From contig NC_092671.1 of assembly GCF_964355755.1 (NCBI RefSeq), forward strand, positions 19,406,001 to 19,470,000: 64,000 nucleotides of DNA, given 5' to 3'. This DNA is from Antedon mediterranea. Taxonomy: Eukaryota > Animalia > Echinodermata. Every line of letters begins with the position of its first letter. Position 1 is the first letter of the stretch. The position numbers and the translations under genes were made by a program. The notes under the pieces were generated by a model, which saw nothing but the letters and a program-made list of their open reading frames with translations, did no database searches and was not told the DNA's origin. Shown here one piece after another: positions 45,301-48,300 of the stretch.

Positions 45301-48300
45301 CAGATCATCTGATGTATTAAAAGAATTAAGATTTTTGCAGTATATAAAAAATATTCTTACTGTATAGCTGTACCAAAAAAATAAAATCATTTTCATACCA
45401 TTCAGAATTTGACAGTGAACTGTTCCAAAAACATACTTAGGTTTGAAGTCAAGACATTTGAACATTGATTGGACAGCAAGGCTACACATACTGGACAGGA
45501 GTTAAGGTCAATAAGGGTTTGTTATTGATAAGAATGAATAGAGTAATACACGCCTTCAAAGGAACTGTAAAAATGTAGTACACCAACACCAATGCTTACA
45601 CGAAACCCATCCTCCATCAAAAGGACATACAAAACAGTACAGTACTGAGGTGCATATATGTCATTGTCAGTCAATTTTCCAAAAATTAATCAATACAAAC
45701 AACCATATATTTTTAATTAACATTGAAGTCTACAAGTAAACTCAATCCAAATTTTATATTACATAATGGTATGGAAAAATATTTAAAAAAGGTAGTGAAT
45801 CATAAAGTGCACAGTATTATATGATTATAATTTTAACTTACCTGTATGGTGGGAATGGGGATGAAGGGTTAATCCTGATAAATCTAAAATATATAAATAA
45901 CAATATAATTAATTTGTGGCTTACCTGTTTGTTGAAGGGTTAATCCTGATAAATCTAAAATGTAAACAATGATATTATAAATTAGCCCAAATAAAAAAAT
46001 AAATAAATGACCCAATGTTTCTATGAATTATCTCCCAGCTATAATAGTTGGCTTTCATGGGTTTAGAGTGTTACAATATAGTACAGTATATTATAAAGAA
46101 AAACAAAACTAATTGTGGTGTACACTATTTTTTCTATTAGTATTTAGTGAATATTTTCTAAACACTTCAGGATTAATAATACAGTAAAATATTTATTTTT
46201 CAGGTTAAACAAATTTCAATATACATTTGTTTTTTTATTTTACACAATCATTCACTAATGCAGTAAATGGTCTGTGATTAAAAGTCTTTCTCACAACATT
46301 TGTGGCACATGCAAGGGAAATCGGACATAAGTCGCATTTGTAGATTTGTAGAGACAGCCAAAAACAATAAAAGGCTGAAAAATTACATTTACAGAAAATA
46401 ATAGCTGAAACAGTACCGTACTGACGCGGGTATAAGCCCACCCCCCTTGAACATGAAATCATGTCAAGTTTGGGGGGTTATACCCGAGGATCCAAAAATG
46501 CAGATCGTCAAAAACAGCACATGTACACTGTATTCTACCATGCGAGTGAGCGCCCTCACGTGTACGACGTTGCCTCTAAATACACGAGGTGTAGAGTGTC
46601 GGAAAATTAAGCTTATAGGCCTAGGCTAGTTCGTGTAATTTATCGTAGAATATCTTATTTTAAACATCAATTGAACAAGAATTTATCAAGCAGAAAAGCA
46701 AGTATACAATGTTCGTTAAATAGAAATGTACCAAAGAAATTTAATAAGCTTGTTTATGGCAGCCGATACCAAATAGTGGTTTTCCGTTTTGGTGACTTAT
46801 AGCGTCGTGTGTGAAGCGATCTTCGACCGCGATGGAGTGTAAACAAAACAGGACCGCTAGGCCTCATATGGCCTAGCGTATATTAGCCTAGCTTGGTTAT
46901 GATCAAAGGTAGGTGTATTCGGTGTATGGACGTCGCCAAATACAAAATAATGTATTACGACACACACTGTAGATCTTCGAATTAATGGGTGGGCTTATAC
47001 CCGAGTGCCTCATTTTTCATGAAAATTAGTCAAAAGTCGGGGGTGGGCTTATACCCGAGTATGGGCTTATACCCGAGTATGGGCTTATACCCGCGTCAGT
47101 ACGGTATTTATTTACATTACGTTGGTGTTTTTCTATTTTTTTAAAACGTTAACATTTTGTGTGGTATGTTCGGTTAAAAGATGGTGTAAATTATGTATGA
47201 TTTTCATAAAACCTATCATGTTTTATGCTTAAATTGAAAGTGGGTTGATTTTAATGAAAATTTTGCATAATAATATAACAATAGTTAATTAAGGAAGGTG
47301 CAAAGTTTCATTGAAATTAAACAATTAGAATACCATTTTGCCAAGGCGTAAACTGAAACGCCCTGTTTATTTCTTTGTATTTGTCATTTCCTGGTACGTA
47401 AATTTAAAAGCATTTTTCTCAAAACACTGATTGTAACAGTCAAAACTTTAGACTGGAAATAGACATGGTATCAAGATATTTTTTTCAGCATTTTAAATCT
47501 TGGATTATGTAGTTTTAGTAAATTTGTAAAAATCTCAATTTTGAAAATTCCGAATTATTTCTGCTTTCCCTTGCATGTGCCACATTTATGATTGACTCTC
47601 CCAATACTCTCTAAAAAATCTTTCAAAACAAGATTTTCTTTTCTACATTTTCCCCTGGGAAATTATTACAAGGTCATTCTACGCCATGATTTTGGTAAAG
47701 TTTTGCAGTGCTATGATGTCATACGTCCACTCATACTCTGTCCAGAAAGCATACGGCAAAATGTCACATGCAAGTCAAATTCCCCATGTGCATATCCTAA
47801 AAATGACGTCATAGGGTATAGTATCAGTTGACATAGCGAACATGCAAATTCGAAAGTTCCCCATTTATAAAAATATAACTGCTCATACAGGTATTCAACA
47901 AAGAAATTAAAAAAGAATGTACCAACAATACATTAAATTGCTTACCTATTCCTGGTGAAACAATACGTTCATAATGATATGGATTAACACATACACTATC
48001 ACACTTCAAATCAAAAGCATATTGACAGAATTTGAGGTGTTTAAGTTCATTCTTATGCAGATCAGGCCAGCGCCATATCCTCGCATAAATAACATGGGGA
48101 AATCCTTTTCTTCCAGCAACCTAAAAATAATTTATTTTTTATTGACCATGTTAATCAGCAATTAATTTATTTACAGTTATGGTACCTGTATGCTGAATGG
48201 TGTTTCAGAATGGGTATTGCTAAACACCGCAAACCTCCAAAAAAACATAGCAAACCCCACCGAACCAACATAAAAGTGATTGAATCATGTAGTGTACAAC

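What the first reader, a model, noticed from the sequence alone, without database searches (positions are those of the whole stretch)
45842..45954. Tandemly duplicated SMAD4 NES micro-exon, probably mutually exclusive
Seen: two phase 1-1 exons, 30 nt ([10 protein letters not shown]) and 42 nt ([14 protein letters not shown]), both with strong ttttag and GTAAG sites, separated by only 41 nt (45884-45924). Established: this exon encodes the CRM1-dependent NES (IDLSGLTLQ) of SMAD4, and its loss makes SMAD4 constitutively nuclear; very short introns between duplicated exons can sterically force mutually exclusive splicing. Inference: isoforms with the same NES core but different flanks, one with a His cluster that could be pH- or metal-sensitive, may tune nuclear shuttling. 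I do not know of this being described for SMAD4.
Basis: partly seen in the sequence, partly recalled or inferred. Interest (0 to 1): 0.75.

Follow-up and report, generated by a model that had tools for sequence, protein, structure and literature searches.

The report
Duplicated SMAD4 export-signal exon in crinoid
In a feather star, the tiny exon that carries the nuclear-export signal of the TGF-beta signalling protein SMAD4 exists as two adjacent copies, likely used one at a time because the gap between them is likely too short to splice out, which would give two proteins with the same export core that likely behave much alike.

Summary
Observation confirmed. The window holds SMAD4 of the crinoid Antedon (minus strand). 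Its NES micro-exon is tandemly duplicated: copy A (45954-45925, 30 nt) and copy B (45883-45842, 42 nt), 41 nt apart, both with AG and GTAAG sites. RefSeq already lists both proteins, one with A and one with B; the cluster holds none with both. A spliced contig joins exon 2 to A to exon 4, skipping B. Use of B rests on the automated RefSeq model alone. Mutual exclusion by steric hindrance is likely but inferred: the predicted branch point lies 16 nt from A's donor, and co-inclusion would be in frame, so frame does not enforce it. All NES anchor residues are identical; B only adds four residues before the SUMO-site lysine. No second NES exon was seen among 390 SMAD4 proteins, though protein data cannot rule one out. 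The pH or metal idea has no support: histidines there are common in orthologs. Optional short inserts at this junction recur in other echinoderms and molluscs. Verdict: a real, likely lineage-restricted new case of a known splicing mechanism, with likely small functional effect.

The parts
45925..45954 (-). NES micro-exon copy A (30 nt, phase 1-1); keeps the human spacing from the last NES leucine to the VKDE lysine (11 residues)
   Evidence: used in RefSeq XP_071942899.1 (P0002) and in the spliced contig of run X1
45884..45924 (-). 41-nt spacer: GTAAG donor of A, predicted branch motif TTAAT (A at -26, 16 nt from the donor), T-rich tract and AG acceptor of B; 7 of 41 bases G or C; retention gives an in-frame stop
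   Evidence: branch point predicted from the yUnAy consensus, not mapped
45842..45883 (-). NES micro-exon copy B (42 nt, phase 1-1); same first 22 nt as A plus a 12-nt insertion of two imperfect hexamer units; NES-to-VKDE lysine spacing 15 residues
   Evidence: used in RefSeq XP_071942898.1 (P0121); not seen in read data here
45955..45990 (-). 3' end of the intron before A, with predicted branch motif CTAAT at -28 and no upstream AG within 45 nt
47946..48120 (-). upstream coding exon 2 (end of MH1; supplies the first NES anchor Ile and the G of the split Asp codon)
31874..32059 (-). downstream coding exon 4 (186 nt) with the VKDE motif homologous to the SMAD4 K159 SUMO site; 13,782 nt below B
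   Evidence: (loose end)
21326..50253 (-). whole SMAD4 coding span (11 coding exons per isoform; MH1 and MH2 domains)
   Evidence: maps P0121 and P0002 onto the window by exact match, exon by exon, apart from junction codons

Best explanation
The SMAD4 gene of this crinoid carries two tandem copies of its export-signal micro-exon 41 nt apart, which are likely spliced one at a time because the spacer is likely too short for the spliceosome, so the two predicted proteins share the same export-signal core and likely differ little in nuclear export. Shown: the duplication, the splice sites, the A-only splice (exon 2 to A to exon 4) and two database models with one copy each. Inferred: U1 on A's donor and U2 at B's branch point, 16 nt away, cannot bind together, so choosing one copy excludes the other. 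A leak that retains the spacer meets an in-frame stop and would likely be degraded. A is likely the default form (human-like spacing, the form assembled in run X1). B is likely a tolerated variant that arose after the split from Anneissia by a short tandem duplication plus a 12-nt slippage insertion. It lengthens the disordered stretch between the NES and the SUMO-site lysine by four residues.
For: Anatomy and chance level. RefSeq X1 uses B, X2 uses A, 2 of 2 cluster members, none with both. The X1 contig joins 45954 to 47946 across a GT-AG intron at depth 34.8, and its loose end is exon 4 sequence, so B is skipped. Donor-to-branch distance under 50 nt is the published steric criterion, met by 57 of 629 human clusters (PMC5740500, passages). 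The shortest other intron of this gene is 127 nt. Anchors I-x-L-x-x-L-x-L are identical in both forms, and CRM1 binding rests mainly on anchor side chains (PMC5358978, passages). His and His-Pro after the last anchor occur in natural orthologs. Both Anneissia models show one NES exon form.
Against: Human introns of 43, 49 and 56 nt are spliced (PMC4463651, passages), so 41 nt is not absolutely prohibitive, though 12 of the 15 validated ones are G-rich and this spacer is not. The 22 exonic bases are identical, all seven third codon positions included, while the intron flanks score no better than shuffles (fraction 0.12 upstream, 0.48 downstream). That may mean B is under constraint rather than neutral. 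A review says the exon 3/4 boundary matters for human NES function (PMC6218760, section 9), and that boundary is where A and B differ. The time of origin rests on protein models of one other crinoid, not on its DNA.
Confidence: 0.6

Rival explanations
1. B is a decaying or rarely used duplicate: A is in effect constitutive and B appears only as splicing noise that the annotation pipeline picked up.
For: The only spliced contig seen uses A. No B-like tail in any other of 390 SMAD4 proteins with an NES core. A keeps the commonest spacer length of 9 residues, 125 sequences.
Against: B keeps intact AG and GTAAG sites, a branch motif, an open frame with a 12-nt (in-frame) insertion and an unchanged NES core. 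RefSeq models it as an isoform. Contigs drop rarer variants.
Confidence: 0.2
2. The pair is a regulated switch. The His-rich B tail or the 4-residue longer distance to the SUMO-site lysine changes CRM1 access or SUMO-NES coupling and so tunes SMAD4 shuttling in some tissue or in regeneration.
For: K159 is a SUMO site (PMC8580444, passages), and SUMOylation enhances Medea export in Drosophila (PMC10847725, PMC3292837, passages). The exon 3/4 boundary is called important for export. Optional inserts of 4 or more residues at this junction occur in 10 of 21 hand-picked species with several isoforms, and the insert is identical across four scallops.
Against: NES anchors are identical. Spacer length varies from 5 to 27 residues among orthologs, so the region is tolerant. 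Mice develop normally without Smad4 shuttling (title only). Nothing here bears on pH or metal sensing.
Confidence: 0.15
3. The exons are not strictly exclusive: the 41-nt spacer is an ultra-short intron that can be excised, giving an in-frame protein with a doubled NES.
For: Co-inclusion is in frame (72 nt). Introns of 43 nt are spliced in human cells.
Against: Neither RefSeq model nor the X1 contig includes both. The spacer lacks the G-rich character of most validated ultra-short introns. The predicted branch point is 16 nt from the donor.
Confidence: 0.05

Closest known systems
Tandem-duplicated mutually exclusive exons enforced by steric interference (57 of 629 human clusters in PMC5740500; OGDH 4a/4b in the PMC7969005 abstract listing; alpha-tropomyosin exons 2/3 recalled)
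   Same: Homologous adjacent exons in the same phase, donor-to-branch distance under 50 nt, one copy per annotated transcript.
   Different: The exons are micro-exons of unequal length (30 and 42 nt). The whole intron is 41 nt, rather than a long intron with a distant branch point. The pair seems lineage-restricted, whereas most human events are ancient (PMC9741552, abstract start).
Human SMAD4 exon 3 (NES exon) and its skipping isoform
   Same: Same exon position and NES core; skipping both Antedon copies would also be in frame and remove three of four anchors.
   Different: In human the known event is loss of the exon (PMC6218760, section 9). Here the exon is duplicated and swapped, and both forms keep the NES. 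No skipping form is annotated for Antedon (2 of 2 models).
Optional short inserts after the SMAD4 NES in other invertebrate gene models (Lytechinus, Patiria, scallops, Biomphalaria, Physella)
   Same: They lengthen the same NES-to-VKDE spacer by a few residues and leave the NES core unchanged.
   Different: In protein they look like added pieces after an unchanged NES exon rather than a swapped duplicate; their genomic basis was not examined.

Membership tests
SMAD4 / co-SMAD | MH1 and MH2 domains, closest to SMAD4 | tested here: met
   Exon 2 best matches SMAD4 MH1 structures, E 1e-37 against 3e-23 for the best other listed SMAD chain after the three top hits. PF03165 and PF03166 on P0121. 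The window encodes RefSeq SMAD4-like X1 and X2.
SMAD4 class 2 NES | Anchor pattern phi-x-phi-x-x-phi-x-phi matching human residues 140-148 | tested here: met
   Both isoforms match the human peptide in PMC5358978 at all four anchors.
SMAD4 class 2 NES | CRM1-dependent export activity | not testable with these tools
   Needs a binding or leptomycin B assay.
Tandem-duplicated mutually exclusive exons | Adjacent homologous exons in the same phase | tested here: met
   29-nt exact repeat, both phase 1-1.
Tandem-duplicated mutually exclusive exons | Each exon is found in transcripts | tested here: inconclusive
   A: spliced contig. B: RefSeq model only.
Tandem-duplicated mutually exclusive exons | No transcript joins both exons | tested here: inconclusive
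   None in 2 of 2 RefSeq models or in the one spliced contig; raw reads were not available and contigs drop rare forms.
Sterically enforced mutually exclusive exons | Donor-to-branch-point distance under 50 nt | tested here: met
   The whole spacer is 41 nt; predicted branch A 16 nt from the donor (criterion). The branch point is predicted, not mapped.
Frame/NMD-enforced mutually exclusive exons | Co-inclusion shifts the reading frame | tested here: not met
   30 + 42 = 72 nt, in frame.

The most novel reading that the evidence does not exclude
Invertebrate SMAD4 genes have repeatedly and independently evolved optional splicing at the junction between the export signal and the K159-type SUMO site: exon duplication in Antedon, 5-8 residue inserts in sea urchins, sea stars, scallops and snails. 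This is a convergent, regulated dial on SUMO-coupled nuclear export of the common TGF-beta/BMP mediator, and the Antedon steric pair is its cleanest binary form.
Probability: 0.12. Interest if true: 0.65.

Novelty: new member of a known kind. Interest (0 to 1): 0.35.

Why it matters
It is a compact natural example of a mutually exclusive exon pair likely caught soon after birth, in a core developmental signalling gene, with a minimal 41-nt spacer that makes the steric model easy to test in a minigene. If the B form or the recurring inserts in other invertebrates change export or SUMOylation, they would show splicing control of SMAD4 shuttling beyond plain exon skipping. The expected effect is small: the NES core is unchanged, both proteins are already in RefSeq, and shuttling is reported dispensable in mouse development.

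Tried and rejected
No RNA holder was listed on record by the run search; X1 is only guessed to be RNA, though it holds a GT-AG spliced contig. Copy B has no cover in X1 contigs (depth 0 at 45832-45913); contigs drop rarer variants, so this is no evidence that B is unused. No raw reads were offered, so junction counts could not be made. No whole genome is held for the window, so the species' intron-length floor and a genome-wide rate of such pairs could not be computed; only this gene's 11 gaps were measured. Three protein searches (best 120 listed of 2597, 213 and 133 hits) and three cluster look-ups gave 436 proteins, 390 with an NES core. One had two cores (P0001, Glossina model, cores 477 residues apart, a repeated stretch and not a micro-exon pair) and only P0121 had the B tail. 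Protein data cannot show unannotated genomic copies, and no DNA of other crinoids was reachable. The test of intron-flank homology between the copies was not significant. Assembly artefact rejected. Frame-enforced exclusion rejected. Primary papers Pierreux 2000, Watanabe 2000, Biondi 2007 and Miles 2008 were not held; they are cited through reviews or titles. A paper search for Smad4 + mutually exclusive exons + echinoderm found 0 papers, and SMAD is not mentioned in the main text of PMC5740500 or PMC9741552; their supplementary lists were not read. Three look-ups of earlier scan findings returned nothing. No fold or complex job was sent: the differing residues lie outside the NES anchors in a disordered linker.

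Full report
Identity. The stretch lies in a SMAD4 gene on the minus strand, coding span 50253 to 21326. Exon 48120-47946 matches SMAD4 MH1 structures best. The first coding exon is 100% identical to a RefSeq SMAD4-like protein of the feather star Antedon mediterranea. Both RefSeq isoforms, P0121 (XP_071942898.1, 639 aa) and P0002 (XP_071942899.1, 635 aa), map onto the window by exact match exon by exon, apart from junction codons. MH1 and MH2 domains are present.

Observation. Confirmed as written. Copy A is 45954-45925 (30 nt), copy B is 45883-45842 (42 nt), and the spacer is 41 nt. Both have TTTTAG before and GTAAG after, in phase 1-1. The copies share 29 identical bases at 71-nt spacing; the chance of the 28-mer by composition is about 2e-16 per position. 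Only three exact repeats of 20 nt or more at 40-150 nt spacing exist in the window, this one included. There is no third copy. B aligns to A with a 12-nt insertion of two imperfect hexamer units. Contigs of X2, X3 and X5 span both copies unbroken; they are one sample and may be the source of the assembly.

Transcript evidence. The RefSeq cluster has two members: X1 uses B, X2 uses A, and neither uses both. That such isoform models need transcript support is my recollection of the NCBI pipeline; I could not see the evidence. Run X1, guessed to be RNA, holds a 393-nt contig at depth 34.8 that joins 47946 to 45954 across a GT-AG intron of 1991 nt. Its loose end at 45923 is the start of exon 4 at 32059. 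The length fits exon 2 plus two shared bases (177), A (30) and exon 4 (186). So A used alone, with B skipped, is shown. Use of B is not shown by reads here.

Mechanism of exclusion. Co-inclusion would be in frame, so frame does not enforce the choice; retention of the spacer gives an in-frame stop. The spacer holds a yUnAy branch motif with its A at -26, 16 nt from A's donor, matching a motif at -28 before A. A donor-to-branch distance under 50 nt is the published steric criterion, met by 57 of 629 human clusters (PMC5740500, passages). The shortest other intron in this gene is 127 nt (boundaries to within a base). Against certainty: human introns of 43, 49 and 56 nt are spliced, though 12 of 15 validated ultra-short introns are G-rich (PMC4463651, passages); this spacer has 7 G or C in 41. 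Steric exclusion is therefore likely but inferred.

What differs in protein. The human SMAD4 NES (133-149) binds CRM1 as a class 2 NES, mainly through hydrophobic anchors (PMC5358978, passages). The four anchors are the same in A and B, the first coming from exon 2. The change begins one residue after the last anchor. The distance from that leucine to the VKDE lysine is 11 in a 552-aa mammalian SMAD4 (K159) and in A, and 15 in B. K159 is a SUMO site (PMC8580444, passages), and SUMOylation promotes export of Drosophila Medea (review passages). A review states that the exon 3/4 boundary matters for export (PMC6218760, section 9). These points leave room for an effect. Against one: His is at +1 in 39 and at +2 in 114 of 361 sequences, His-Pro at +1/+2 occurs in 17 of 390, and spacer length ranges from 5 to 27 residues among orthologs. 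[quoted passage not shown] Nothing found supports pH or metal sensing.

Distribution. Of 436 proteins fetched, 390 have an NES core. Only P0121 has the B tail, and the one protein with two cores has them 477 residues apart. Both models of the crinoid Anneissia show one NES form. The duplication therefore likely postdates that split, but no DNA of relatives could be read. The exonic core is identical at all seven third codon positions while the intron flanks score no better than shuffles. This fits a short or recent duplication, conversion, or constraint on B; the test is weak in AT-rich DNA.

Wider pattern. In 21 hand-picked species with several isoforms, 14 show more than one spacer length at this junction and 10 show an optional insert of four or more residues. 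The insert is identical in four scallops and near-identical in two snails and two Lytechinus species. The set is not random, the models are mostly automated, and an exon junction in a disordered linker tolerates inserts, so neutrality is the null reading. It is the basis of the novel case.

Comparison and novelty. The mechanism is known: tandem-duplicated, sterically exclusive exons. Both proteins are already in RefSeq. I found no paper on such a pair in SMAD4: 0 papers for Smad4 + mutually exclusive exons + echinoderm, none among the 5 titles and abstract starts, and no SMAD mention in the main text of two human surveys (supplements not read; most subscription journals are not searched). Verdict: a new member of a known kind, real, likely lineage-restricted, likely of small effect. 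Interest 0.35.

Noticed in passing
P0160/P0269, P0267/P0270, P0272/P0273, P0271/P0274 (scallops); P0041/P0038, P0046/P0118 (snails); P0123-P0129, P0131 (echinoderms): Optional 5-8 residue inserts directly after the SMAD4 NES exon recur in several invertebrate lineages and are conserved within each.
   Followed up: partly
window about 32700-34650 and 36550-38480: Two near-identical copies of an element at about 3.82 kb spacing inside the 13.8-kb intron below copy B, each with a 188-codon open stretch without Pfam match; a third, more diverged copy near 43500-43960. Possibly a repeated mobile element or a local assembly duplication.
   Followed up: partly
window 40796-43405: A 2.6-kb near-perfect palindrome (arms 97-99% complementary) with internal 194-nt tandem units and 26-nt outer inverted repeats, in the same intron; looks like a foldback-type DNA element.
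   Followed up: no
window 54266-55929, minus strand: CHTOP / Friend-of-PRMT1-like gene (RGG-rich exon, PF13865) just upstream of SMAD4 on the same strand.
   Followed up: partly
window 11126-16246, plus strand: Exons of a legume-like lectin gene (PF03388; LMAN1/ERGIC-53-like by my recall) convergent with SMAD4.
   Followed up: partly
P0003 against P0122 (Anneissia); P0248, P0251, P0254-P0256, P0259 (Branchiostoma): Isoforms also vary just before the NES core: one Anneissia model lacks two residues including the first anchor Ile, and Branchiostoma models alternate Gly and Ala before that Ile in three species.
   Followed up: no
P0028 (Plakobranchus), P0054 (Ixodes ricinus): SMAD4 models that lack the NES micro-exon in frame, like the human exon 3 skipping form; may be annotation misses.
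   Followed up: no
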